A stretch of 57,784 bases of DNA, filler included, from Dugesia japonica (Eukaryota): the NCBI GenBank assembly GCA_001938525.1. It is 6 parts of 6 records of this genome, joined end to end, with 100 filler letters (N's around TTAATTAATTAA, not from the genome) between each part and the next. Parts side by side here need not be neighbours in the genome. Positions count along the whole stretch, not along the records: positions 1 to 10,027 come from MQRL01624652.1; 5 more parts are not named here. One strand, written 5' to 3'. The position numbers were made by a program, and so were the translations under genes. Of the stretch, positions 658 through 56,348 are shown piece by piece (position 1 is the first letter of the stretch; every line of letters starts with the position of its first letter). Under the pieces are notes generated by a model, which searched no databases, was not told the origin of the DNA, and saw only the letters and a list, made by a program, of their open reading frames with translations.

Positions 658-1193
658 GCAATGTTAAAGTAACTATGTAAAATTTTGTTCCATAAGAAGT
701 ATGAATTGATTTTCCGATTCCTTTTGAATTTAAAAACTTATTGCAAAATATAAAATATTGGAATAGAATTTAGAAAATTTCAAATGTAATTACAAAAATA
801 AATACAAAATGTGGTTCTCACGTAGAACCGCAAAATTTTCGTTTGAACTTGAACGTTTTAAAAATCAAATATATTTATTTAAATTACAGAGTTATTAGTT
901 TAACTAATTGTATCTTGTTTCCTGACTAGTTTTTTCAAAATTGAGATTTTTTTTGAAATTTAGCTGAAGGAAGACGAAGTAAGAGATACGTTAAAGATTA
1001 TCGGTATTCCAACTGGAATTATACCGAAATTATCGGAATTATATACAAGTGTTCAGGCACATTTTGCAAGTTTAAATTCAGANNNNNNNNNNNNNNNNNN
1101 NNNNNNNNNNNNNNNNNNNNNNNNNNNNNNNNACTAATTGTATCTTGTTTCCTGACTAGTTTTTTCAAAATTGAGATTTTTTTTGAAATTTAG

Positions 1194-1571
1194 CTGAAAG
1201 AAGACGAAGTAAGAGATACGTTAAAGATTATCGGTATCCCAACTGGAATTATACCGAAATTATCGGAATTATATACAAGTGTTCAGGCACATTTTGCAAG
1301 TTTAAATTCAGAAAAACTTATTAATGAAAGAAGTTACAAAGATTTAAAATGGCGAATTGATATTGAGTTATCATCGAAATTCGTTGAAAACAATCCGAAA
1401 CCTGTAATTTATTTGCATTTGATTACGAAAAACCCGGTTTCTGGAGAAGACGAAACGAAAATATTTCAAACTGATCCTTGCAATATTCGTCATTTAATTA
1501 GTGAACTCGAAATGGCACAAAAGGAATTAGACTCGGTTTATTGTCAACGCGTTGAGAAATACATTAAATAG
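1194..1571 (+). CDS. COMMD2: Terminal exon of COMM domain-containing protein 2
   Basis: After acceptor ttag, open frame LKEDEVRDTL...YKDLKWRIDIELSSK...IFQTDPCNIRHLISELEMA...YCQRVEKYIK*. It matches the COMM domain (W-R-x-D) and the COMMD2 motifs QTDP..HL...LE.A and C.RV...IK. Not in the ORF track because it has no ATG. Confidence 0.85.
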   Translation: MKEDEVRDTLKIIGIPTGIIPKLSELYTSVQAHFASLNSEKLINERSYKDLKWRIDIELSSKFVENNPKPVIYLHLITKNPVSGEDETKIFQTDPCNIRHLISELEMAQKELDSVYCQRVEKYIK

Positions 1572-2818
1572 CCTTCTGATATTTGATTTGTTATAAAAAA
1601 TTTTATTAATAACATTTGTTTACTTTCTTTTCTCTATATAATCAATATATAATCAATAATTTCTTTTGTTTATTGTGAAAATTACATTTTGGGTATTTAT
1701 TCACTTTTAATATATTTTTAACCATTGATTTCTGAATGATAAAATTAAATATTTTCAAAATTACGGAAATAAACTAAGGCTTACATCAAAAAAGTTTCAA
1801 AAAAATATTTTTTCTTTAAATTTTTATTAAAGTTACAAAAAAAAATTCAAAAAAGCTTTAATCAATCACAACTCCTAAAGAAGATGAAATCGATAATTTT
1901 GGAAAACCAAAATATCGATTTTTCAATTTGAAGGTAAATATTAATTTTGTTTAAATTAAATCTTTTTATTCTTATTTTGATTGGATAATATTATTAAAAT
2001 TTATATTGATGTCTGATATAATTTTTTTGATCAAAATTTCTTCGAGTTTTTTTCTATAGAGTGGTCAGAAAAATTAGCAACTCAAAAAATTTTGAAAAAA
2101 TTCATTATAAGGATTTACCATTCCCGATTAAATACTTGACTAAATCTTCCAAAAATTACCAAAACTGAGGAAAAATTTGACCACATTCCACCTCACCGAA
2201 TAAATTCCCAACTAAACACAAAGGAAAAATTAAACACCACTTTCAATTTATTTTTAAAAATTTATCCCCTTTTTTAATTTCTTTTAAAAAACGTATCCCC
2301 TCTTTTTCTAACGTCGACGGGGGCTTATTATGGATAAAATCAAGAGGGGATACGCGCGACTATCTACCTACTACTTAAATTATATTAAACGTTTCTATCT
2401 ATCTGCTATCTATCTTTCTCTGCTGAGGTTTCTACCAAACACCGTTTCTGCTGGAAATGGATGAAGATTTCAATATGGGGACGGATCTAATACCCAAGTT
2501 GTTGTCAGATTATGCGCTGGATTTTAAGTCCCTACGTTTTAAATCCACTGAAAAGGAAACGACCAAAACATACAACGAAAATAATTGTGGAGAATATGAA
2601 CAACGTGGAGAACAAAAAGAGAGTAGAAAGAATGCAGATCAATATGCTACAGGCAAGCAAAGCGAGAAAGAGTAAATCGTTATGGCACCCACCATCTTCT
2701 GACAAAGATAATGAAACCATTAAGCAAGTATTTGAATTGCAAACGATAATGGAAGAAATAAATAATAAAGAGGAAAATAATTTGTTATTGGATGTCGCCG
2801 AAGTGCTAATGGCGTTCA

Positions 2819-4549
2819 ATGAAATTAAACCAAGTTTCGATAGGTTACATCAGACTTTTGCTGGAGAAATTGATCCTAGATCGAGGTAAACAGTTGATGG
2901 AATTGGAGATTAAGTCATTTAAAGTAAAGATTTATGTGGAACACCAAGTAACCCGTCATGTACGAATACATAAAACGGATCGATGGTGCGACATTGCAGA
3001 AAGAGTCAGATGCATGATAAATATGGTTGGAAAAAGCCTATATTTCAGTCATGATAGAATAGAAGATACTTCGATAGAGCCTGCGTTGTTAAATGGATTA
3101 GGGAGTAACTCAAAGATTGGTCTATATCTTAGAAGCAAACCGGATCATAACCAGGTTGGTGGAGGAGCTGAGAATCTCCAAAAGAAAGTTAAACAGATTT
3201 GGAAGTGGGTGAGAGACAATATGGAGTTGGCATGTCACCAAAAAGTATTGAAAGTGATAAACAAGGAACAACAGCAGCAAATAGAGAGTATGGAAGCAAT
3301 CCATAAAAGGAATGCGGACAATATNNNNGAAAAAACCAGGAAAGAAAGTGAGTTGGATTACGAAATACAAAATTTAGTGAACATTATACAGAGAACTACA
3401 AAGAATTTTCAAGAAATCACAAGTGCATCTCATTATCTTTTAGCACAGCAAATTGGGGACGAAAGACGAGCGGATTTGGAAAAAGAATTTTATGGTTTTC
3501 AAAAACAAGGAGAGGCAATGGATATGATTATTACGCTTTTACTGTCGTCGTGGAGAATGGTAACAGAAGATGAAATTATTACTAGACCGAGGATCACATT
3601 ACCATCTCCAATAGAATTTCCAGAAAATCGATAGTTATTGTTGTGTGAGTATTGTGGAAAATTTGGACACCAAGAAAGTAGGTGTTGGTTGTTAAAGATA
3701 TGTTTCAAATGTCAAGCAAAAGGACACGTCTAGAAGAATTGTCTGGTAAGAAATAGACCAAGCATTATAAGTGAAAATCAACAGGTAAACAGATGTAACT
3801 CTAGAGTGAATGAATGTCGACGAATACATGAGGTTCTAAATAATAGAAGCGTTGAGATCAATGGAGCAGGTCACTATTAAGAAGCTACTAGGAGGAATAA
3901 TTTATGCAACCGTTATCCAGAAAGAAAACCGCAAAATCTATGCCCAGTAACAATTCCAGGTGATGATATTCTGATGAAAAAGATGAGGATAAATGGCATA
4001 GAAATCAAATGCATGCTAGATACCGGGGCGAGCAGATCGAAAATCGATTTTAAAACAATAAGTGAAGAAGATGTAATAAGAATTCGTAAAGAAAAAACTC
4101 AGATGCTTACAGTAACAGGAAAGTCAATCGACGTAATCGGGGAACTGGATTGTCGGATATCCGATGGTGACTTCAAGTGTATGTATTCAATGAAAGTAAT
4201 CGAGAATTCAATGTTTGAATGTGTTATTGGATTAGACCTGTTAAGAACAATGTTTCCAGATGGTCAACTGGATATGAATAGATTCAAAAAAGAGGTTAGT
4301 AATGACTCTGATGAAATTGAAGGTAGAAATGAATCCTATACAAAAGAAAACGAAACAAGGAAAGAATATCAAGAAAAGGTGATTGGGAGAAAGCAAGAAC
4401 AAATTGATCACAAAACAAATCATGTTACGAACCAGGGTTTTGTGTTTAAACGGCGGCAATCAAGGCTAAGAGAATGGAAAAGTTTGAGTTGCGCCAGCTG
4501 CGTGAAGGAAAAGGCTGAAGTAGATCTGCCTGTTAGAAACGGTGGGTAA
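2819..4549 (+). pseudogene. Gag-protease polyprotein (Ubl domain, coiled coil, two CCHC knuckles, retropepsin)
   Basis: One frame with premature stops at 3632, 3731 and 3878. CEYCGKFGHQESRC (3644-3685), CFKCQAKGHV*KNC (3701-3742), MLDTGASRS (D at 4019) and CVIGLDLL. Probably begins further upstream (2457/2512) via frameshifts. Confidence 0.85.
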
Positions 4550-6689
4550 AATTTTGTGTTTGGAGGGTACAATTGATATGCGTAGTCCATTAAAAGATAC
4601 GGTAAATGTGTTGCATGAGGCAAAGACACGGATGAAGTTAATACAAGCCGTACATGTCAAAGGTCAATCATTGTCACCAACAGAACAAGAAGGATGGTGG
4701 AGTGATATTATGCCTCAGGTGCAAGGCATCGACGAGGACGTCGATTTTTCGAAAGAGGGGAGTGATTATGGATCACTACTATTTGAAGCACGCCGGAGGA
4801 GAATGCATCAACAACTAACTAATAAAAAGCAAATAATTAAAGAAATACAAGGAGACAATAGAGTATTTACTGAATTAGCAAAAAGAACGTTATCGGACAG
4901 GTCTGAACAAAGTTTGGAAGATATGTGGGCAGATCTGTGTCAGGCGGGACTTGAAGTGAAAACGAACCATGTGGAATACAAAGCAAAGCAAGTCAACAAG
5001 ATAGCGGAAGCGGTACAATTTATAAAAGAACACAACGGGCATGGAGACCCCAAAGTGGAACAATTAAAAGGGTCCGTACAGCTAGTACAAACATTGGGAA
5101 AACTAGTAGAAGAGTTGGAGGCAGAGAGAAATGAAATTCAACAAGATCAGGAAATTCCAAGGAAGGCGTGTCAGATATCAAATAAATGGAACAAGCGGAT
5201 GTATGCAGTGTTATTATTAATTGTATTTAAAGTGGTAAATAGCGAGGAGTGCTATAATTATGAAGATGTAAACAATGAACATAAAATACACATAACACGT
5301 TATAATACTGAAATACAAACGATATCTAGAAAACGGTTAAAAAGAGTAACGTCAACTAATGATTGCAGTGAAAGTATAAATAGCAAAATTGCGTATAAAT
5401 GGATGGAACCCACCATCTCAGTCGAGGACCAGTCAATTGGGGCAGTGATACACAGAGAATTTTGGAGTTTATCGATTGAGGTCAAAGGCAACATACTACA
5501 GGAATTAAGGCTCGCACACTATAACAAGGAAACAGGAGATGTATATCGAGACGAAAATTGGCAACTTATTTGCAAAGGGAAGACAAAATTGTTTAGAGTA
5601 TATTGGGTTTTCAGTATATATTATCGTACCGAATTTCTGATCCAGTATATAACGCAAGACGGTAAAAATCCAGTATGGTTAACTAACCGAGATGATTGTC
5701 CGAGAAGCAAGCATTATACGTGTTACAGTTGTGAAAAATCGGATCGAATAAGATAATTAGAGTACGATGGGAATGACGAACCCAGCAAATTAAAAGACAA
5801 AGAGAAACATTACAATTTGGGGGATGGAGTGAAATTGGCATGCAAATAAATAACTTGAAAACGGAGAACATGGTGGACACGTTTACAATTACCATAAAAC
5901 GAGGTAATAAACAAAAGGCACGATTTGGATATTACAAAGAATTACGAGAATGGACAAACGGAGAGTTTCTACTGGAATTTGAATGGTGGAAAAGTCAACA
6001 AGAGTTAGTAATAAAAATGAAAAAAAGTTTGGAGTATGGGTCAAGTTAGAATATATTGTAGTTTTTGGATTACCGCTGAGCAAAAATTCGTTAAAATCTA
6101 ATATTACCGTGACAACAGCAAAATCGACTTCATTAAAAACAACGACGAAAACGTATCCAAATACGACGACAATAGCGACAACACCAATAATGAAGAGTAG
6201 TACGAGAGATACAAGTGCGCGAAGAAAAGTGATAAATATTACGATGACTAGGTATGTGACGGCGACAATAGAAAGCGAACAAAAGAGAATGCCATCAAAT
6301 GTGTTAAATAAACAACAGGAGGATTTTATTGAAAAATTGATGAAAGAGTTGGTAAGGACCGGTTCACGAAGGACATTTCCGGCAAAAGCTAAGTTGAGGC
6401 ACGAGGCATCAACGATGCAAAGCAAAATGGAAAATGAAAGGAATTGGTCAGCAGGACTCATTGGTGAAGTAGCAGGGGTCATTACGATGATCATGATGAC
6501 GATTATAACAATATTAATTTGTAAAGCAAAACGAGGGCAGTATCCGAGACTGCGTTTAGAACCNNNNNNNNNNNNNNNNNNNNNNNNNNNNNNNNNNNNN
6601 NNNNNNNNNNNNNTATAACAATATTAATTTGTAAAGCAAAACGAGGGCAGTATCCGAGACTGCGTTTAGAACCGGAATTAAGAGAGTAG
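4542..6689 (+). pseudogene. Helical domain followed by env-like type I glycoprotein (frameshifted)
   Basis: Internal signal-like MYAVLLLIVFKVVNS (5199), RKRLKR furin site (5328-5345), Cys/Trp-containing ectodomain, Thr-rich stalk, TM GVITMIMMTIITILIC followed by KAKR. Spans ORFs 4542, 5840 and 5983. Confidence 0.6.
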
Positions 6690-7077
6690 ACAGAAAAATA
6701 TTTACACCAGCCAAGAGAGTTCGTGCAGTTGAGAGTTTCTGAGGGAGGAACTGAGTCGTTGTGGAGTTATTGAGGAGATCAGTGGAAGCAAAGTTGTAAA
6801 TAAATTACCTGAAATGTAACAGTAAGGTACACAATTTAGTTTTTGAGTAGCTCGAATTGTAAAGTAGAGCATAGCTGAGTAAATTAAAATTAAAATATGG
6901 AGTAATTTGTAAACTTGTTTTGGAATGGATCACTGTAGTATCTTCATAGTAGTATTTATTTAGTAAAATGGAACAGAAACAAATGACAATGAATGGACGA
7001 CTAACAGTAAATGTGGATCNNNNNNNNNNNNNNNNNNNNNNNNNNNNNNNNNNNNNNNNNNNNNNNNNNTTAGTAAA

Positions 7078-7593
7078 ATGGAACAGAAACAAATGACAAT
7101 GAATGGACGACTAACAGTAAATGTGGATCTAGACGACGTCGACAGAACGATTACGGAGGAGCCGGCGCAAACTTATATCCAACTGCTTAATCAGCTTTTA
7201 AATCCTTATTTTACAATGGAAAACTTGTGGGACGAACATTGCAGAAGCGTAATGAGAAATTCAGATGTACTAAATGAACAATTACAACAGACCCAACAAT
7301 TAAATGCAACCCTTGTGGAGAATCAAAATTTTTATGTGATGCAGGTACACCGATTGAATGAAATAGTGGAAATTCAGAGATAACAGATTACCGAGAATCA
7401 GAATTTTTACCTACAAACTTTGAGTGGAACTAACAAAATAATAGAGGATCTGAGACACCAAGTGGAGGAGTTACAAGCCTATAATGCAGAACTTATTCTA
7501 TCCCAAATTAACCGATTACCGAGCGTATCCGCCATCCTGAATACTATCGAGACGAGCGAGACGATGTGGTATCGAGAAGAGAGTAACGTATGA
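7078..7593 (+). pseudogene. Accessory coiled-coil ORF with duplicated ENQNFY motif
   Basis: ORF 7078-7383 reads on past a TAA into QITENQNFYLQTL...; heptad-rich. Confidence 0.45.
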
Positions 7594-7777
7594 CAACGGA
7601 TGCCAAGATGTAGAGTATTGTAAAGTATGTGTTAAATAGTAACTGTATTACTATGCAAAATAAATGTATTCCAAAAATCAAAAACAGTAAAAGTAACAGT
7701 AAAATATCGTATAAGTAGAGTGCCAATTATAGTTATATAATCAGTGCGTAATCAGAATAATTCCATTTTGTATATAG

Positions 7778-8027
7778 AACGTTTGAGGATTTTCAAAAAT
7801 TGTGGAGGTGTGTGGTGAAAGAATTTGAGGAGACTGTAGCATTAATATGTAAAGCAAAGACAGAGAAAAGGATGAGGTGAGGAGAATGCGAAGTTGAAAC
7901 AGTTTCAGTATTAAATTTACCTTGTGAGCATGTAGCAGTTTGTCAGAAATATCACCAGAGAAACGAGCTCAAACGATGCGCAATGTGTAAATGGTCGATA
8001 GAGTAGTGGTATGTGGTGTATCTATGA
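7778..8027 (+). pseudogene. IAP/MDM2-type C-terminal RING finger exon
   Basis: *GEC...LNLPCEHVAVCQKY...LKRCAMC...WYVVYL*. First Cys codon reads TGA; preceded by an AG acceptor. Confidence 0.7.
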
Positions 8028-8233
8028 GTGAGATACCCGGTAAACCTGTAAATAAAGTTACAATCAAGATACAGTACAGTAAAAGTAACTAAGGAAACAA
8101 TATTTAAACAATTTGTAAATATAAGTCTCAACTAAAAATTTGGTTAAATAGTAAATTCAATGATTTTTAACTCCTAATGTCTGAATTATGCAAATAAAGT
8201 ATATCGTGTATTACTTATATTTCAATTAAGAAA

Positions 8234-9127
8234 ATGGCATCTCGAAGTTCAAGTAGTATGGCTCAACAGAGAGGAGCAATCAGACGATACTGTGAAAATA
8301 ATGCTCGACCCCATTCAGCCAATGAACCTGTAAAATTCAGTGCGATCAAGGAGAAAACGAACCTCAATGCGCCCAGAGGCGAAATAAAGTCGTTTGAATT
8401 GAGAGGAGTAGAATCAAAAAATTACCTGACTGAAGGGGAATCACGAAGAAGGCGGGGTGATGTACGAATTCAAAGAGAAAACAAGCAAATACACGATAGT
8501 GTAAGAGAAAGATTCTTTTGGAAAAACTTATGCGCTGAAAGAGAGGAGGAGATCATAAAGTTGCAACAAGAGCTAAATAACATTCGCAAGCGACCAATAA
8601 AGCAAATCCACGAATTAGAAACTTAAATAAATTGGCAACAGAAAAAAATTAAAATGCTAGAGAAAACTATTGAACGTAATAATGAAGGCCGTATTACAAA
8701 TCAACAAGTACAACAATAGAGACTGGATCAGATACTACAAAACAATGAGCGGCTGATGAGAGAAAGCTTAATATGGAAATTGGAGAAAGAACAGAACAAT
8801 ATAGACATACAACATCTAGAAAATGCTGTAAAACATCTTCATGACGAAAATGCGCGTCTCAAGGAAGTTACAATCCGAGTAGTGATTCCCCCTCGACAAG
8901 TCAATTTGACGAAAGTGGAACAAACATTTTACACTTATAAAACAAATGGGCGACCTGTAGCCCCACAGATTAGTTTACTTAATCAACAGGCCATCCAGAA
9001 GAGACAAACACCACGATCCAATTCCCAATCCAGTAGATCCAGTACATCTTATCTTACGACTTCGACAAATGAGCAGTCGCAATGGCCATATTCAGCATCC
9101 GAGGAGGATCTGTTCTGGGGCCGATAA
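8234..9127 (+). pseudogene. Accessory coiled-coil protein (about 297 codons, two internal stops)
   Basis: ORFs 8234 and 8756 are in the same frame, and the sequence between them reads as coiled coil. Confidence 0.5.
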
Positions 9128-10027
9128 ATTCTTCGTGTCGAGCAGTTCTATGCTGCGTGTAAACTATGTAAATATTTTTCGTAATGAGTAAAACTATTCA
9201 TATTTGTGTCTCTGACAATTTCTATACCCAAATGTTCTCTGACAATTCAATGCTGTCCATTTGGTCGTCTCATGTGTATTCTGCCGTCTATGTTGTCAAT
9301 CTATTCCAAATCAATTCAGCTATCTACGAGCCGAAGGTGTCCTCCGAATCCGGTATGTCGATCAAGAGAAGATCTAAACAAGTTGACTTTTTGATTGTTT
9401 TATGATCCTATGGAGATGTGAATTCGATGTTGTTAATTATATTAAAGTGATCCGGTTATTTATAATGACAATTAAGATTTAAATAGTGAACATAAAATTG
9501 ATTCAGTGGTGAAATTTGATTAACATCTGCATGTGTATTTATGATATTTGATCGAAATAATGTATTTTCAATTGTTTTTGTTATTTTCTTCTTATTTCTT
9601 ATCTGTGTTTATTTTATGACATATCAGAATCTTGCTTGAGGGAACTTTCTAACTAGAGTGTGAATGGAAATCGAGCTTCCATAGACCTAGTTTTCGTTGA
9701 AAAGAGTATTATGAAATTGAGAAGAATTGACGACAACATAAACAAAGAATTTAATGAGAAATTCCGGGACAGGATTTTTTCGAGGCCCCCAGTAATTTGT
9801 TGGGAGGGAACACCAAAATGGTGAAATAATAGAAGAGGTAAAGATGGGCAATGGTTGCCGAAAATAGAAAAGAATCGACACAAAATTGATGGTCTAGACC
9901 AGAAAATTGAGTATTATGTACAATAAAATCATTATTATTATTATTATGGTCACTATTATTATGTAGTTATTATTATTATAATTATTTTGGATTATGCTTA
10001 GAAAATATCGAAAAATGAAAATTGGGC

Positions 10028-10127
10028 NNNNNNNNNNNNNNNNNNNNNNNNNNNNNNNNNNNNNNNNNNNNTTAATTAATTAANNNNNNNNNNNNNNNNN
10101 NNNNNNNNNNNNNNNNNNNNNNNNNNN
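10028..10127. other. Artificial scaffold linker
   Basis: 44N + TTAATTAATTAA (stops in all six frames) + 44N. Confidence 0.95.
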
Positions 10128-10369
10128 GGCCAGAGATATCCGTAAAAAACAGATTTTCGTTTAATTTTCGTTTATTTTTATTTTAAAATTAATTAATTCT
10201 TTCATATTAATTAATTATTTTTCATAATATTTTTTCTTGGTGATTCTTTTTATTCATTAATTTTTCTTGATTACGGATCCTATGTTGTTTCTCTTTTCCT
10301 TGTATCNTCTTTATTTTCTCTTTATTTCTTTTTTACGATTGCTTTTCTTTTCATTTCTTTTCTTCTCCT

Positions 10370-11000
10370 TTAGTGGGTGTTTCACCCCAACACAAATATT
10401 AGATATCGGCCAACTCGCTTTCAAGAATATCCACATTTTGAACAAAGTAAGCCTATACAAATACAAGGTCAGTACAATAATTTCCCGCAGTATTCTTTGA
10501 AAAATTTAGCAAATAAACTATATTGTAAAGCTAAAGGAAAGATACCGCCGCGAAACAAAATCCTAAAAACAGGAGCATGTTTTTGCTGTGGAGAAACTAG
10601 TCATAGAAATATAAATATCCCATTGCAAAAAAATGTTTAATTTGTTGAAAGGAAGGTCAAAGTTTTCGGGGTTGTTTACTAATTCGACTAAAAAAATTTT
10701 CGGTGTCTAAAGTTTGTGTATTGCAGAAGAGGGCGATAATCGGTCCTGTACAAGAGAATCTATAAATTATATACATGATGTCCCTACAGACGATGACGGA
10801 TTAAAAAACGATTGGCAACCCACTGCATCCATCTTATTGGTGATATTGCAATAATCGATCGTAAAACCAGAGATGCAAGAATGATATTTGATTAAAAGAA
10901 GGTATTTCAGAAGAAAGATGAAAGAGAATGGAGTATAAAGCAGTGTAATGTATATGACGTTGAAATGTTATGGGATTGAAGAGCATATAATTTTGAATTA
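10370..11000 (+). mobile_element. Ty3/gypsy gag-pro remnant, homologous to 33640-34140
   Basis: CFCCGETSH knuckle; shared nucleotide blocks (aactcgctttcaagaa, ttcggtgtctaaagttt, atacatgat..ccta.agac). Confidence 0.65.
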
Positions 11001-11665
11001 CTGCTAATAAATATATATATATATTTATATTAATGAAAACCTTTATAATTAAATTGTCAAATAAAATATACTAAATAATTTTAAGATTAAATTTTAATAT
11101 GCTATGATAATTTCAATACGCTTTAAAATTTAAAAATTTCCTAAGTTATGAGTTATCGACCTCTTTTCGGTTAGTTGGCGACAGTAAATCCAATTAAACG
11201 TTGAAATGAATCATAGAAATAAGAGATTTGCATTAATTATTTTATTGGCAGTATTGAAAGCATATCATTCAAGTTCAAATACACAACAGGATCTAGCTGA
11301 CTATCGATCCTCACTGTGCTGTATATTATGTTTAATAAATATTGTATATTTGATATTATACTCTTTAATTTGAGTCAAGCAAGAAAAAAACTAATTATCA
11401 CATAAATATAAAACTGATTACTACTAACACTCGCTGAACACCAAAAATAGGCGATGTATTCTGCAAATACTTGAAGTATCTGTTTTTCAAATAAAAAGAA
11501 GTCAAAGATGGAGGAAAGTATTTCTATTCAAACACCTAAAATTATCAGGAATCCAACAAATGTATGAATTGAATTTTGGAAACAAACAACAAATATATAA
11601 ATTTAACAAAATCAAAATGTCAAATGTAATAATTTTTTCAATCATAACTTATTGAATTATTAATT

Positions 11666-12568
11666 TCACAAAGATTCACTATCATCGAAAACAAAATTAA
11701 GAAGTTTTGACTCAAATTCCACTAGACTTTGAGTGTTCCTTATTCTTTGCAAAATGATCAATAAGTACCCACCGCTTACACAAATAATTAAAGATGTGAA
11801 GCTAAAAATAATTAAAAATGCTGTTTTCAAAAAGTGATCATTGAAATTTATATAATCATTATGAACTTCAAAATTGAAAATCTCATCATTGATAATTGTA
11901 TAATTAAACAATGTATCCCGACATTTTATTTTCTTTAATAGCATTGTTCTTTCTAAAAGAATTAATCCCATATGATTTTTTTCACTATTTGGATAATAAA
12001 AATGGGTTTTATTCAAATTATCGTCCATAATTTCTAAAATCGTCCGACCACCTTTATTATCATAAAGTCGACAACCCACCAGAATTATATCACCTTCTTT
12101 CAAAAACCGTTGTTTGAATTTCCTTTGAGAAGTATGAATCCATTCTATTTCCATATCTCTTAAAGTAGCTTTTTGAATTGGGATTTTAATGGTTTTCATT
12201 GGAGATTTGAAAAATAAATAAATAATTTCCCAATTATCACGAGTTTCATTTTCATTTAACAATAAAATTATCAAAATTTTCGGTTGATCTGGATATTGAA
12301 TTATTTTAAATGTGTGTTTGATTTCGTTTTTTAATGATCTATCGAGAAAATTTAAATTCGGATTTATCGATAAAATCCGATTTTCATTTTGATAAATTTC
12401 TAATTCACAATTCTCTGTCCATTTATTCAGTAATGATCTAATTGAAATTGTTGTGTAAATATGTTGAACTACAAGTTCAGGATAAAACTTTACTTCAATG
12501 TTAGCATGGAGAATTCTCCATATTGAAATAAATACAATATTAATTAATAATTGAATTTTCTTTTCCAT
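11666..12568 (-). CDS. Intronless 300-aa type I membrane protein, possibly two Ig-like domains
   Basis: Uninterrupted 903-nt ORF in very AT-rich DNA; N-terminal signal peptide, beta-rich ectodomain with LKEGDIILVGC...KIKC, several N-x-S/T sites, one TM, short tail. Confidence 0.7.
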   Translation of the reverse strand: MEKKIQLLINIVFISIWRILHANIEVKFYPELVVQHIYTTISIRSLLNKWTENCELEIYQNENRILSINPNLNFLDRSLKNEIKHTFKIIQYPDQPKILIILLLNENETRDNWEIIYLFFKSPMKTIKIPIQKATLRDMEIEWIHTSQRKFKQRFLKEGDIILVGCRLYDNKGGRTILEIMDDNLNKTHFYYPNSEKNHMGLILLERTMLLKKIKCRDTLFNYTIINDEIFNFEVHNDYINFNDHFLKTAFLIIFSFTSLIICVSGGYLLIILQRIRNTQSLVEFESKLLNFVFDDSESL

Positions 12569-13414
12569 ATACTAACTAATCGATATAATTTCATAAATGA
12601 AATAGAAATAGAAATTAAGAAAAACATACTATTGCACTGTGACGCTCCCTCCTCCGAAGAGAAGTATTGAACTTATGGAGTTCTATAGTAGTTCTTCGGA
12701 TTTGTAATTTTTTGTACCAGTTGTACGGACATTTTTATGACTGTCCATTTTAACTCTTTACCGCTACTACTGATCTTTCATTTGATTTTATTTTTCTTTC
12801 TTTCACTTCATTTTTTTCTTATCATCTAATGTTTCTGTTTCTTTCTTTATAGTCTTTACTTTTATTATATGAGTCTTCTTTCCTTTCTAGTCATCCTTTG
12901 GCACTGATGCTCGCTTAACAGTTTCCATATTTGTAATTATATTTCTTTCTTATTTCTCTCATTATTGTTTTGTTTAATATGTTTATTTATATCATTCTTT
13001 CCCTTGCTATATACTTACATTTCAGACATTTTTCACTTCCAATTTTTGTTCTAACTTTCTCCTGCCACTTCTCTTGTTTTTTTATCTATGTTTCTTCGAT
13101 TTCTTAGTATTTCTTTCTTTTATGTAGTATTATTTATATTTCTTTCGATTCCTTTCTTTACTATTGATTTGATATAGTTCTTATCTTTCTCGACATTTTC
13201 TTTCTACGTTTGCTTTTGTCTCCCGCTGATTTTGATTCCTACTTTGCATTTAAACACTTCAACTTCTTTCATTATGTTTATATCTTCCAATTTTCTTTAA
13301 AGGTTATGCCTTTTAGTTGTGATTAAACACTTTGTGCTTAGAAGTTTGTTTCTTTCATGTAATTCTTTTACCTCCTGCCTGTTTCGTCTTTTTGTCCCTA
13401 GAAATTTCCATATA

Positions 13415-20296: not shown

Positions 20297-20500
20297 GAAC
20301 ATTGGATAGCAGTTTATCATAAGCCTGAAATTATTTCAGTTTTTGATCCTCTTGGATTTTATTATCCACATATATTGATCTCAAATCTCTCAAAAATATC
20401 AAAGTTAATTGAATATAACAGAATTAGATTTCAAAATCCTTTTACAACAACATGTGGTCAACATTGTCTATTGTGGCTTAAAAGTCAACATTTTATGTGA
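20297..20500 (+). CDS. Adenain-like (C5) cysteine protease of a Polinton, 5' part in gap
   Basis: EHWIAVY...FDPLG...FQNPFTTTCGQHCLLWL carries the H, D, Q and C catalytic pattern. Confidence 0.85.
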   Translation, partial: EHWIAVYHKPEIISVFDPLGFYYPHILISNLSKISKLIEYNRIRFQNPFTTTCGQHCLLWLKSQHFM

Positions 20501-44170: not shown

Positions 44171-44959
44171 GTATGAAATAATATGTATGACAATTGGCAA
44201 TGTTACAATAAAATTTACTTATCCAAATTTATTAAATAATACTAATAAAATGTACAATTAAAAATGTAATTAAAAATAATGTTTACAGTTTCATAATCTT
44301 TCTGATCATTTTAAAAACGGGAAAGCCTTTTTCCAAGTATCGAAGCTCCAATTTGTTATAAAAATCGGTTCTAAGACAAAATTAGGTAAACGCAAATATT
44401 GAAATTAGAATTTTTGTTTATATAAATTATTTTGAATAGTGAATAGGCAATGTGATGATCGAGAAAAATTTTTCAGAAATGTTTTTTAATACTAGTATTA
44501 CTAAAATTCTAATTTAGATGTCATTTGTGGTTCTGAATAATAAAATAACTTATACATATAATGGTGATTTGGATTTGAATATTTAATGGATTGTAAATAT
44601 TTGTTTAGTGGTAAATATTTGTTTAGTCAGTTGTTTAGTTTCGTATAATTGAAACAACACATAAGAAATAATAGATATAAATAGGAAAGAATGTTAACTT
44701 TTAAAATTTGAGAATTGTTTCAAGTGATCCAAATTTAGATATAAAAAAGATAAATGAACAAAGTTTATTCCAAATTTTTCAAACATGTTCATAATGTTTG
44801 ACTGTAATTTGACTTTCCGTTGTTATAATGTCGATGTTTTATGGTATACGACAGAGCAGTCAACGGAAGAAATTCTTATTTGTTTAGAAGTGATAAAGTT
44901 AGTAAGATGGAATTGAAAATGACTCCTTAGATTTTGTGCATTTACAAATTATGACAATT

Positions 44960-45672
44960 TATTATCGAAAAGAATAAAAGAAAATCATTCCTGCATCGCA
45001 TAATTACTGGAGATGAAAAGCGGGTCTATTTCACCAATCCCGAGCATAAACGATGGTGGTTTGATCCAGAAGAACCGCCAAAGTCAACGGGAAAACGGAA
45101 TTTTCATGGGAAAAAGGTGCTTCTATGCATATGGTGCGATCACAAAGATATTCTGTTCCATGAGCTACTGAAACCTGGTGAAACAGTTAATGCTATCCGT
45201 TATGAACAACAGCTTTTGCTATTAAATGAAGAAATCACTGCCAAACGACCAGAATGGGCTGACAGTCATGGCAAAGTAATATTGCTCAATGACAACGCTC
45301 GGCCTTATGTCGCAAAACACCTTGCTGAGGCGATAAAACAGCTGAAATGGGATGTATTACCCCACCCGCCATACTTTACAGATATTGCTCCATCAGATTA
45401 CTATTTGTTCCGTTTAATGGCACATCATCTGTCAGAGCACAGTTTCAAAAATTACGAAGATGTCAAAATATGGTTGAACGAGTGGATTGTCACCAAATAA
45501 AACAAATTATTTTATGACGGTATTCATAAACTGCCCAAACTTTGGGAGGATGTTGTTAAGAATGATGAAAATTATTCCCAATAAAAGTTTTTAATAAAAC
45601 TGCTTTGTCTTTTTTTATATAGACTTTTTAAAAAAAGAGGTAAAAACGGCAAAGTCAAGCTTGTAGACTTAA
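44960..45672 (+). mobile_element. mariner (Mos1-like) transposon, 5' truncated
   Basis: ITGDEK...DNARPY...HPPYFTDIAPSDYYLF (DD34D), one stop; 3' TIR-like end ...AGCTTGTAGACTTAA + TA. Confidence 0.9.
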
Positions 45673-54400: not shown

Positions 54401-54479
54401 TAAACCACTGTATAATTACTAATAACTATGATTGATTAAAATATGAAATGAGATAATAATCCTTAACAGATCTTATTCA

Positions 54480-56348
54480 CTTCAAAATAAAGCAACTTGT
54501 TCATAAAATTCTTCTTAATGAAACCATAGAAAAAGAACAATCCACACCTAAAATTCAAAAAGCTTCACCTTTGATATTAAACTTTGTTAAGCGAGACAGT
54601 TTGGAAGATATAGTATCGAAGTTGGCTGCAGTTGATAATATTTCCATACGTGCTATAACGAATTCTGCATTTATTCGTGAATCAATTTCTAGTCGGGGTT
54701 ATTTTTTACCAAACTGCGAAACCAGTGTTATGAAATTGATACATCGTAATTTTGAATTAAAGAAAGACGAGGTGATTAAAATCATTGAACAACGTAAAAT
54801 ACTTGGCAATAAATTTAGTATCACCAGTGATGAATTGACAAGCTTAAGGAGACGTAGATACCTGAACATAAATATCCATGGAGAAAACGACGTATGCGTA
54901 AATCTTGTGCTTGTTCGAATTCCAGGATTTTGTAATGCAAATTATATGGTGAATAAAGTGAAAAATCAGTTGCTTAAATTTAAAATTAATTTTGAAAGTG
55001 ATATTGTATGCACTATTCATGATGGGGCTCCAATGATGTTAAAGTATAGAAGAACTTGCCCAGCTGAAATGATTATATATTTAAACCACAGTATACACTT
55101 AGGNNNNNNNNNNNNNNNNNNNNNNNNNNNNNNNNNNNNNNNNNNNNNNNNNNNNNNNNNNNNNNNNNNNNNNNNNNNNNNAGATGATTTTCAAGATTCT
55201 GAGGATGATCCCGGTATCGACAATTATGATGACGAAAATGTAACTATTTTTGAACAGTTAAAGCTGGTGAGGAAAATTGTGTGCTTTTTTAGATATTCTC
55301 CAGTACACAACAGCATCCTGCAAAATCATGTCAGAAATGAATTCGATCGTGAGTATGAACTACTCTTAGATATAAAGATTCGATGGAACTCGATTGCGCC
55401 CATGATAGAAAGATTTTTGAAGTTGAAAACGCAAATTTTACAAGGTTTAACAGATTTAAAATGCTCATTATTTGATGGAAAAGGTTGACTTTGAGCTATT
55501 GAAAAATCTCAATCATTCTCTACAGACTATAAAACTAACGGTGGAAGCATTAAGTCGAAAAGACGCAAATATTTTTGGTGTTGAGGACGTTTTATCTTTT
55601 TTGAAAAACAAAATGAAAGCAATCAAAAAGCAGAAATAAGTCGCGATTGTTATAAGTCAATTGAAAATCGAATTAAATTGAGAAAAAATTACATTAATGC
55701 TTTAATAAAATGTCTTGTTGATCTAACTTCAACAAATGGTCCAACAAAATCTACTCTTAGTTTTGCTACAGCTCTTATGAAGAGACTTTTTCCTGTTGAG
55801 ACTATGCGGTTCTCTGAGGCTGGACAAGAAATTATGTGTGAAGAATCCGCAGTCATAGTTGAATCAGATATAGAATTGGCTGAAGAACTGAATTCAGATA
55901 TTTCAAAAGCGTGCAACGTTAAGTAGAAATATCAAATGATATCATCACTTTAAAGCAAGAATTCAACAGCTACAAGAAAACTTCTATNAGAACACAAAAT
56001 CTTGAATTGCATTATATGGCATTGAAAACAGCGAAGTCGACTTCAACAGATTCGGAGCGAACTTTTTCGGTTTCTGGAATGTTCTGCACACAGATCAGAT
56101 CTCGTCTCTCATGCGCATCGCTTAATGCATTATTTTTTCTAAAATTTTATTATTTAAATGAAAAAATGCCGAAAATTTAATTTTATCTCTTTTAAATTTT
56201 ATTTATAAGAAATAAAAGTAATTTTTGTGAAGTTCAATATTCAACAATTTATTTTATTTTTATTCAGTTATCCGGTATACGCCGGATAATTTCAAAACGT
56301 CTATCCGATAACCGCGGTTTCAGAAAATCCGAATATTTGGAAATCCTA
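54480..56348 (+). mobile_element. hAT transposon with pseudogenised transposase
   Basis: FSITSDELTS, DGAPMM, HSIHL, LDIKIRWNS, hATC TSTDSERTFS...IRSRLS; CCGG-rich subterminal region ending ...AATCCTA. Confidence 0.9.

What the first reader, a model, noticed from the sequence alone, without database searches (positions are those of the whole stretch)
5199..6689. Env-like glycoprotein with furin site and mucin stalk
Seen: an internal signal peptide, RKRLKR about 30 residues after it, a Cys/Trp ectodomain, a Thr-rich stalk, one TM and a basic stop-transfer. It sits at the env position of the element. I cannot see a fusion peptide after the furin site, and I do not recognise errantivirus F, class II or gB features. 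It may be a new attachment/fusion protein or a captured host receptor.
Basis: partly seen in the sequence, partly recalled or inferred. Interest (0 to 1): 0.7.

Follow-up and report, generated by a model that had tools for sequence, protein, structure and literature searches.

The report
Orphan envelope-like protein, decayed retroelement
A broken copy of a repeated, retrovirus-like element in an animal genome encodes, right behind its capsid and protease genes, a membrane glycoprotein that matched no known viral envelope in our searches; it looks more like an attachment protein than a fusion protein, but its function is untested.

Summary
The features are real but lie in three frames of a decayed copy: internal signal sequence (5199-5243), beta-rich Cys/Trp head, Thr-rich stalk with four N-glycosylation sequons, one TM (6466-6522), KAKR. 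The protein continues a 225-residue helical region behind gag zinc knuckles and an aspartic protease; no RT or integrase was found in 2300-11600. Public DNA contigs cover gag, protease and ectodomain alike at 9-17 times single-copy depth, so it is element-borne, not a single-copy host gene; stalk end, TM and downstream DNA are at 1000-2000 times. The best-supported other copies lack two frame breaks upstream, pointing to one Gag-PR-X-Env-like polyprotein. No fusion peptide, no Pfam env family, no homologue among 1.84 billion proteins; single-sequence folds were unusable (pLDDT 40). Two poly(A) RNA runs show it nearly silent. Best reading: a type I attachment-type glycoprotein cut from the Gag polyprotein by signal peptidase; fusion unproven. 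Host not identified; Repbase-type libraries could not be searched.

The parts
2491..3742 (+). gag-like region, broken (frame change near 2860, stops at 3632 and 3731), ending in two CCHC zinc knuckles (3644-3685, 3701-3742)
   Evidence: zf-CCHC E 1.1e-4, 22.5 bits, above cut-off; other copies differ in length at the break near 2860 (table 4)
3971..4249 (+). retropepsin-type aspartic protease (LDTGA)
   Evidence: Pfam Asp_protease E 2e-6, gag-asp_proteas E 5.5e-6
4524..5198 (+). helical region X, 225 codons, in frame with the signal sequence; cytosolic in the model; no known family
   Evidence: (all-helical, pLDDT 44.6); frame break to the protease near 4530 is absent from the deepest contig of each DNA run
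4728..4767 (+). purine-rich 40-base motif inside X, shared with a far more abundant relative; resembles a gypsy polypurine-tract context (resemblance recalled)
   Evidence: depth spike 3708/1510 in bin 4697-4993 and loose ends at 4728 and 4767; loose end keeps 4 of 9 residues, all by different codons, in the X frame only
5199..5243 (+). internal signal sequence, likely cut after VNS
   Evidence: hydropathy; no SignalP available, judged by n/h/c-region rules from established knowledge
5244..5753 (+). N-terminal ectodomain, predicted beta-rich, 6 Cys, 5 Trp, no N-sequon
   Evidence: depth 11-17 times single-copy control
5328..5345 (+). basic cluster RKRLKR; canonical furin P4 Arg only in this copy
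   Evidence: (table 3, place 5334)
5754..6050 (+). broken zone of the ectodomain: stops and at least two frame changes; coding frame not settled
6091..6465 (+). stalk: Thr/Ser-rich part (about 6091-6270) then a basic, partly helical part; 4 N-x-S/T sequons
   Evidence: a 347-base gapless contig piece at depth 72.6 spans 6060-6406 (table 8)
6466..6534 (+). single transmembrane helix and KAKR stop-transfer
6564..6673 (.). assembly artefact: 50 N plus a second copy of 6504-6563
   Evidence: skipped by a contig table 5
6798..6825 (+). AATAAA followed by ACAGTAA; similar cassettes follow the next two ORFs (7658-7697, 8050-8089); candidate 3' end of the gag-PR-X-env-like unit
   Evidence: found post hoc; function untested
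6968..7590 (+). downstream ORF, coiled-coil-like, broken, with a second N gap; lies in the stretch at 1000-2000 times control depth
7884..8006 (+). decayed C3HC4 RING finger
   Evidence: zf-C3HC4_3 E 1e-4, 22.5 bits, below the 27-bit cut-off
8198..9127 (+). further broken accessory ORF(s), coiled-coil and Ser-rich
   Evidence: no Pfam family

Best explanation
The stretch is the C-terminal, envelope-type part of a Gag-protease-X polyprotein of a multicopy gypsy-like retroelement that carries no pol at this locus; this copy is dead. In intact copies the ribosome would make Gag, protease and the helical X region in the cytosol, the internal signal sequence would thread the rest into the ER, signal peptidase would release a type I glycoprotein (beta-rich head of roughly 280 residues on an O- and N-glycosylated stalk, one TM, basic cytosolic tail), and the glycoprotein would sit on the membrane where Gag buds, made one-to-one with Gag. 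It most likely works as an attachment or adhesion protein that helps particles or producer cells bind target cells, not as a stand-alone fusogen; reverse transcriptase and integrase would come in trans from a related autonomous family. Shown: anatomy, linkage and equal copy depth with gag/protease, absence of pol in 2300-11600, decay of this copy. Inferred: single polyprotein, signal-peptidase release, particle display, attachment role, trans-mobilisation.
For: Equal repeat depth for gag-protease (13.7x, 9.0x) and ectodomain (17.3x, 10.6x) against a single-copy COMMD exon contig. Signal sequence is in frame with 225 upstream codons, preceded by basic residues as in internal signal anchors. Frame breaks near 2860 (4 and 3 contigs, 2 of 2 RNA reads) and near 4530 (1 contig per run, depth 83.9 of 95.1 and 47.8 of 47.8) are not shared by the best-supported other copies (table 4). 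N-sequons fall only in the luminal stalk (4) and not in X (0). Coding constraint on the X frame between this subfamily and an abundant relative: 4 of 9 residues identical, all by different codons, at 9 of 30 bases identical; 0 of 9 in the other two frames. No hydrophobic peptide after the basic cluster and none above a 19-residue mean of 1.14 between signal and TM. Six-frame Pfam scan of 2300-11600 finds only the protease. In-frame env inside a gypsy polyprotein has precedent (PMC6431247, section 7).
Against: No displayed contig bridges 5407-6060, and only 40 of 896 substitution rows and 12 of 29 indel rows were shown, so the stops at 3632, 3731, 3878 and 5754 and the breaks at 5850-6050 are not shown to be open in other copies. 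One single-depth contig (4235-4592, depth 11.1, no gap) has the window's length at 4530. Depth jumps about 100-fold within 6182-6478, so stalk end and TM are shared with a much larger family and could have joined the head recently. No homologue or usable fold supports any function. Almost no sense poly(A) RNA over the ectodomain in 2 runs. Summed contig depth is not a copy number, by the tool's own note.
Confidence: 0.5

Rival explanations
1. It is a true fusogen of an unrecognised or very diverged kind (small beta-rich class II/III-like head with internal fusion loops), making the element an infectious endogenous retrovirus-like agent.
For: Type I topology and env-like place behind gag-protease; beta-rich prediction; aromatic-rich strands such as 5589-5654 could be fusion-loop-like; in gB-type errantivirus Env the furin site is not always conserved and fusion uses loops (PMC13524379, section 6), so loss of the furin site does not exclude fusion.
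Against: About 407 codons from cut site to TM, of which about 125 are stalk, and only 6-7 Cys: small for gB-type or class II proteins (sizes recalled); no Pfam env family at E up to 1; no N-terminal fusion peptide.
Confidence: 0.15
2. It is a captured host cell-surface protein kept as an accessory gene (for example modulating the host cell surface, immunity or protein turnover together with the downstream RING protein), not built into particles.
For: Signal-head-mucin stalk-TM is a common host receptor plan; the element carries other accessory ORFs (RING, coiled coils); planarian Burro elements carry many host-like domains (PMC6431247); PMC5408684 warns that TM, glycosylation and cleavage motifs alone do not make an env.
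Against: No host homologue in 1.84 billion representatives or in the nearby host SP-TM gene at 11666-12571 (best E 1.5); fusion to Gag-PR ties its amount to capsid supply.
Confidence: 0.2
3. The features do not belong to one protein: the head is a decayed ORF of a minor subfamily, and stalk end plus TM come from a different, very abundant repeat (an LTR or another family) joined by recombination or by the assembler.
For: About 100-fold depth step within 6182-6478, two N gaps with 60-base overlaps at 6564 and 7020, three frames, one of them (90 codons) within chance.
Against: The frame is open from 5983 to the gap at 6563, across the depth step (0 of 2000 resamples reach that length); a gapless contig at depth 72.6 spans 6060-6406; loose ends at 4767, 7776 and 9176 look like diverged, co-linear relatives rather than junctions (table 7, compared by eye; 4767 tested).
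Confidence: 0.15

Closest known systems
Burro (GYPSM1) giant gypsy elements of planarians (PMC6431247, section 7 read)
   Same: env-like segment in frame inside a Gag polyprotein; CCHC knuckles; ubiquitin/apoptosis-type accessory domains; very high copy number of the family
   Different: Burro Env is homologous to gypsy F-type Env and lies before the protease, with RT-RH-IN behind; here the glycoprotein follows the protease, shows no F-type features, and no pol was found
Errantiviruses with F-type or HSV gB-type Env, including GAG-ENV-POL elements of nematodes, bryozoans and flatworms (PMC13524379, sections 5, 6, 14 read in part)
   Same: signal sequence, ectodomain, TM; linked to gag; multicopy
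   Different: no fusion peptide, furin P4 not shared by other copies, ectodomain short and Cys-poor, mucin-like stalk, no pol; that survey required a full POL and would not recover this element
Bdelloid rotifer LTR elements with orphan TM ORF3 (Vesta4, Vesta6c) and non-autonomous env-keeping TelKA2n (PMC5408684, passages read)
   Same: membrane ORF without detectable viral source; env kept in an element lacking most of pol
   Different: those ORFs are separate, 210-230 residues (or canonical F); here about 450 residues, fused in frame to Gag-PR-X, with a Thr-rich stalk
sORF2/FAST-like proteins of MDG1-group retrotransposons (PMC11952523, abstract and outline only)
   Same: shows that LTR elements can spread between cells with a non-canonical membrane protein
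   Different: sORF2 is a short TM protein; this one has a large ectodomain

Membership tests
Errantivirus/baculovirus F-type (class I) Env | conserved furin site R-x-K/R-R | tested here: not met
   present in this copy only; P4 codon differs in 7 of 7 and 6 of 6 covering contigs
Errantivirus/baculovirus F-type (class I) Env | hydrophobic fusion peptide directly after the cleavage site | tested here: not met
   mean hydropathy -0.46 over the next 20 residues
Errantivirus/baculovirus F-type (class I) Env | profile match to gypsy Env / baculovirus F / paramyxovirus F families | tested here: inconclusive
   no such Pfam family at E up to 1, 0.5, 0.02, but single decayed sequence, HMMER only; Burro Env needed HHpred
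gB-type (class III) Env | five-domain ectodomain with conserved cysteine bridges and fusion loops | tested here: inconclusive
   only 6-7 Cys and about 280 non-stalk residues argue against; model pLDDT 40.3, Foldseek best E 0.19, VIA best Z 2.4 cannot test the fold
Class II Env of BEL/Pao elements (phlebovirus Gc-like; features recalled) | Cys-rich three-domain beta ectodomain in frame with gag-pol | tested here: inconclusive
   beta-rich and in frame, but Cys-poor and no Pfam hit; fold not testable
Ty3/gypsy LTR retrotransposon (Metaviridae) | Gag with CCHC knuckle(s) followed by retropepsin | tested here: met
Ty3/gypsy LTR retrotransposon (Metaviridae) | RT-RNase H-integrase in gypsy order | tested here: not met
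   none in six frames of 2300-11600, while the same library finds RT/RNase H of another element at 27269-28312; family members elsewhere not testable
Ty3/gypsy LTR retrotransposon (Metaviridae) | paired LTRs, primer-binding site, target-site duplication | tested here: inconclusive
   no LTR pair in 1600-11000; both ends abut other high-copy repeats and a scaffold gap
Burro elements | multi-kilobase polyprotein with F-type env between BCL2-like domain and protease, pol behind | tested here: not met
   order here is gag-PR-X-glycoprotein; no BIR, MATH, BCL2, ankyrin or pol family; Burro sequences themselves were not available for comparison
Single-copy host receptor | single-copy depth, unlinked to gag | tested here: not met
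   depth 10.6-17.3 times control, contiguous with X and protease

The most novel reading that the evidence does not exclude
A so far undescribed kind of retroelement envelope protein, neither F, gB nor class II, made as the tail of a Gag-protease polyprotein in a pol-less satellite element and sharing its stalk-TM module with a family of a thousand or more copies: a helper-dependent, Gag-plus-Env particle system in an invertebrate whose head domain is swapped or rapidly diverging between subfamilies.
Probability: 0.25. Interest if true: 0.8.

Novelty: new variant of a known kind. Interest (0 to 1): 0.5.

Why it matters
Surveys of env-carrying invertebrate retroelements start from known Env types and an intact pol (PMC13524379, section 14), so an orphan glycoprotein fused to Gag-protease in a pol-less element would be missed. 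If it reaches particles it widens the set of ways such elements move between cells, and the steep conservation contrast (stalk-TM shared with a huge family, head not) would point to receptor-driven divergence. If it is only an accessory host-derived protein, it is one more example of cargo capture.

Tried and rejected
Homologue searches without result: word-index search of 4524-5753 (0 of 2028 candidates); HMMER over 1.84 billion representatives with 4524-6005 read through its stops (1 hit), rejected as a summed match to five repeats of a barnacle protein within X, not the ectodomain; gag-protease against longer proteins (0 of 1578); PDB sequences (0 at E 10); PHROGs (best E 0.0025, unnamed); locus scans of viral contigs, metagenomes (28, 47) and prokaryote genomes (75), all empty. 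ESM Atlas: ectodomain best score 0.88 (haemagglutinin fragment, aerolysin-like clusters), below the tool's reliability line, rejected; X no usable hit. DUF6908 (E 0.0015-0.0045, under cut-off) rejected as weak. Single-sequence AlphaFold models pLDDT 40.3 and 44.6; fold searches gave nothing, which shows neither novelty nor absence. Rfam scan of 1600-11000 for hammerheads or other RNAs: 0. No tRNA in the window. Troyka considered and dropped: defined by termini and RT phylogeny that cannot be tested here (PMC12440569, first fifth read). No listed holder run was on record as RNA (no evidence either way). Host placement by the COMMD exon failed: 2 unnamed relatives at 74% and 79%; a planarian-like host is only a guess from AT content and repeat types. 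No whole genome is held. Earlier scan notes: none. Literature searches listed no paper that describes this arrangement; the original Burro paper was not held, Repbase-type libraries cannot be searched here, and no supplements were read, so a prior description is not excluded.

Full report
Setting. The window is AT-rich (GC about 0.2-0.3 outside elements), with microsatellites, scaffold gaps and decayed transposons, as in a draft animal genome. No whole genome is held and the host could not be placed: the COMM-domain exon at 1194-1571 found only two unnamed relatives. A planarian-like host is a guess, not a result. From about 2400 to 9700 the + strand is richer in GC and strongly purine-skewed and carries a run of same-strand ORFs.

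The observation. They lie in three frames. The long open stretches (410 and 192 codons) exceed chance (0 of 2000 resamples reached 193 codons); the 90-codon piece at 5777-6046 does not (412 of 2000), so the coding frame between 5757 and 6040 is open. The end of the finding crosses an assembly artefact: 50 N and a repeat of 6504-6563.

The element. Upstream lie two CCHC knuckles and a retropepsin. The signal sequence is not a gene start in the usual sense: it sits 225 codons into an ORF that begins at 4524, right behind the protease, and that region (X) is predicted helical. Downstream come a coiled-coil ORF, a decayed C3HC4 RING (E 1e-4, under cut-off) and further broken ORFs. A six-frame Pfam scan of 2300-11600 found only the protease, whereas RT and RNase H of another element in the window were found readily. 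No LTR pair was found; both ends run into other repeats and a scaffold gap.

Other copies. Of 24 listed public runs, I laid 2 DNA contig sets and 2 of the 7 raw RNA runs on 1133-10027 at 85% likeness. Against a single-copy contig on the COMM exon (depth 11.4 and 12.3), gag-protease bins average 13.7 and 9.0 times, ectodomain bins 17.3 and 10.6 times, and 6182-7666 about 2015 and 997 times (the spike bin 4697-4993 and the edge bins were left out of these means; summed contig depth is not a copy number). So the head is repeated like gag and protease, which rules out a single-copy host gene. The frame breaks near 2860 and 4530 are not shared by the best-supported contigs, which read through those places in frame (table 4, frames worked out by hand); one single-depth contig has the window's length at 4530. 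This points to one Gag-PR-X-glycoprotein polyprotein, but the stops at 3632, 3731, 3878, 5754 and the breaks at 5850-6050 were not among the rows shown (40 of 896 substitutions, 12 of 29 indels), so it remains an inference. The 11 displayed differences in the 4524 frame fall 4, 3 and 4 on codon positions one to three, as expected if this copy decayed without selection.

The first base of the P4 arginine codon of RKRLKR differs in 7 of 7 and 6 of 6 covering contigs, leaving a non-basic residue; the canonical furin motif is therefore not a family feature, though a dibasic site may remain. The stop at 6687-6689 differs in 24 and 21 contigs and 6 of 6 RNA reads, so the cytosolic tail is probably longer. 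Contigs drop rare variants, so these rows show the majority form, not every copy.

A larger relative. A 40-base motif at 4728-4767 has a depth spike, and its loose end (17 contigs) keeps 4 of 9 residues, each by a different codon, at only 9 of 30 identical bases, in the X frame alone (one of 24 displayed loose ends, chosen after the fact). With the very high depth over stalk end, TM and the next ORF, this suggests an abundant co-linear family whose gag, protease and head have diverged below 85%. A gapless contig piece at depth 72.6 spans 6060-6406 and the frame stays open across the depth step, which argues against a simple misjoin; no displayed contig bridges 5407-6060.

Expression. In the stranded run the COMM exon has sense depth 64.5, the four ectodomain bins 0, 0.42, 0 and 0; the second run shows 0 from 2618 to 6478 (about a quarter of each run read). 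The element is near silent in these two poly(A) samples; tissue- or piRNA-dependent expression is not tested.

What it resembles. No relative was found by sequence; the one HMMER hit was a repeat artefact in X. Language-model and fold searches gave nothing usable. F-type Env is defined by a conserved furin site and hydrophobic fusion peptide, gB-type Env by five domains with cysteine bridges and fusion loops (PMC13524379, section 6 part 1 read; also passages and sections 5 part 1 and 14). The F features fail here; gB and class II folds could not be tested, though about 280 non-stalk residues and 6-7 Cys are few for them (sizes recalled). In-frame env within a gypsy polyprotein is known from planarian Burro elements, but there it is F-type, before the protease, with pol behind (PMC6431247, passages and section 7). 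Orphan TM ORFs and a pol-less, env-keeping derivative are known from rotifer LTR elements, and that paper cautions that TM, glycosylation and cleavage motifs alone do not prove an env (PMC5408684, passages). sORF2 shows non-canonical spread (PMC11952523, abstract). PMC8532177 and PMC11410931 (passages) and PMC12440569 (first fifth) added nothing specific. Eight searches listed no description of this arrangement; the original Burro paper was not held, no supplements were read, and repeat libraries could not be searched.

Mechanism. Most likely (0.5) the glycoprotein is released from the Gag-PR-X precursor by signal peptidase, travels to the membrane, and acts as an attachment protein: a compact beta head held out on a glycosylated stalk, made one-to-one with Gag, in an element that borrows RT and integrase. 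Rivals: accessory captured host surface protein (0.2), unrecognised fusogen (0.15), chimera of two repeats (0.15). An AATAAA-ACAGTAA cassette about 110 bases behind the ORF, repeated after the next two ORFs, would fit a transcript ending just after the glycoprotein, but is untested.

Verdict. Observation partly confirmed, interpretation partly supported: a real, element-borne, orphan envelope-like glycoprotein in a dead copy, without a reliable furin site and without evidence of fusion. New variant of a known kind; interest 0.5; 0.8 if it proves to be a new envelope type (probability 0.25).

Noticed in passing
window 6182-7666: Depth 2015 and 997 times the single-copy control in two DNA runs, with patchy high depth on to 9450: a very abundant related family shares the stalk end, TM, tail and next ORF but not gag, protease or head at 85% likeness.
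   Followed up: partly
window 6798-6825, 7658-7697, 8050-8089: A similar AATAAA...ACAGTAA cassette follows each of three successive ORFs; ACAGTAAAAGTAAC occurs exactly twice, 392 bases apart. Suggests separately polyadenylated accessory genes, unusual inside an LTR element.
   Followed up: partly
window 4728-4767: A polypurine-tract-like motif (recalled resemblance to gypsy internal-region ends) sits in frame inside region X and is shared with the abundant family; coding constraint continues past it.
   Followed up: partly
window 6513-6530 and 7841-7858: 17 of 18 bases identical (LICKAK) just after the TM and just before the RING finger (E 0.19): chance or trace of a duplication linking TM and RING.
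   Followed up: no
window 11666-12571 (-): Uninterrupted 301-codon ORF with signal-like N-terminus and C-terminal TM, no Pfam family, unrelated to the env-like protein: probably a lineage-specific host surface protein.
   Followed up: partly
window 1194-1571: Last exon of a COMM-domain gene (E 1.4e-12), expressed and spliced in both RNA runs; used as single-copy control.
   Followed up: yes
window 24991-28315, 10374-10986 and 33579-34607: Other decayed gypsy-like elements: one with zinc knuckle and RT/RNase H, and a two-copy family at about 80-86% identity.
   Followed up: no
window 20300-20500, 44955-45500, 54460-55488: Fragments that look like a Polinton-type cysteine protease, a mariner transposase and a hAT-type transposase (recalled resemblance; the first gave no Pfam hit, the other two were not scanned).
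   Followed up: no
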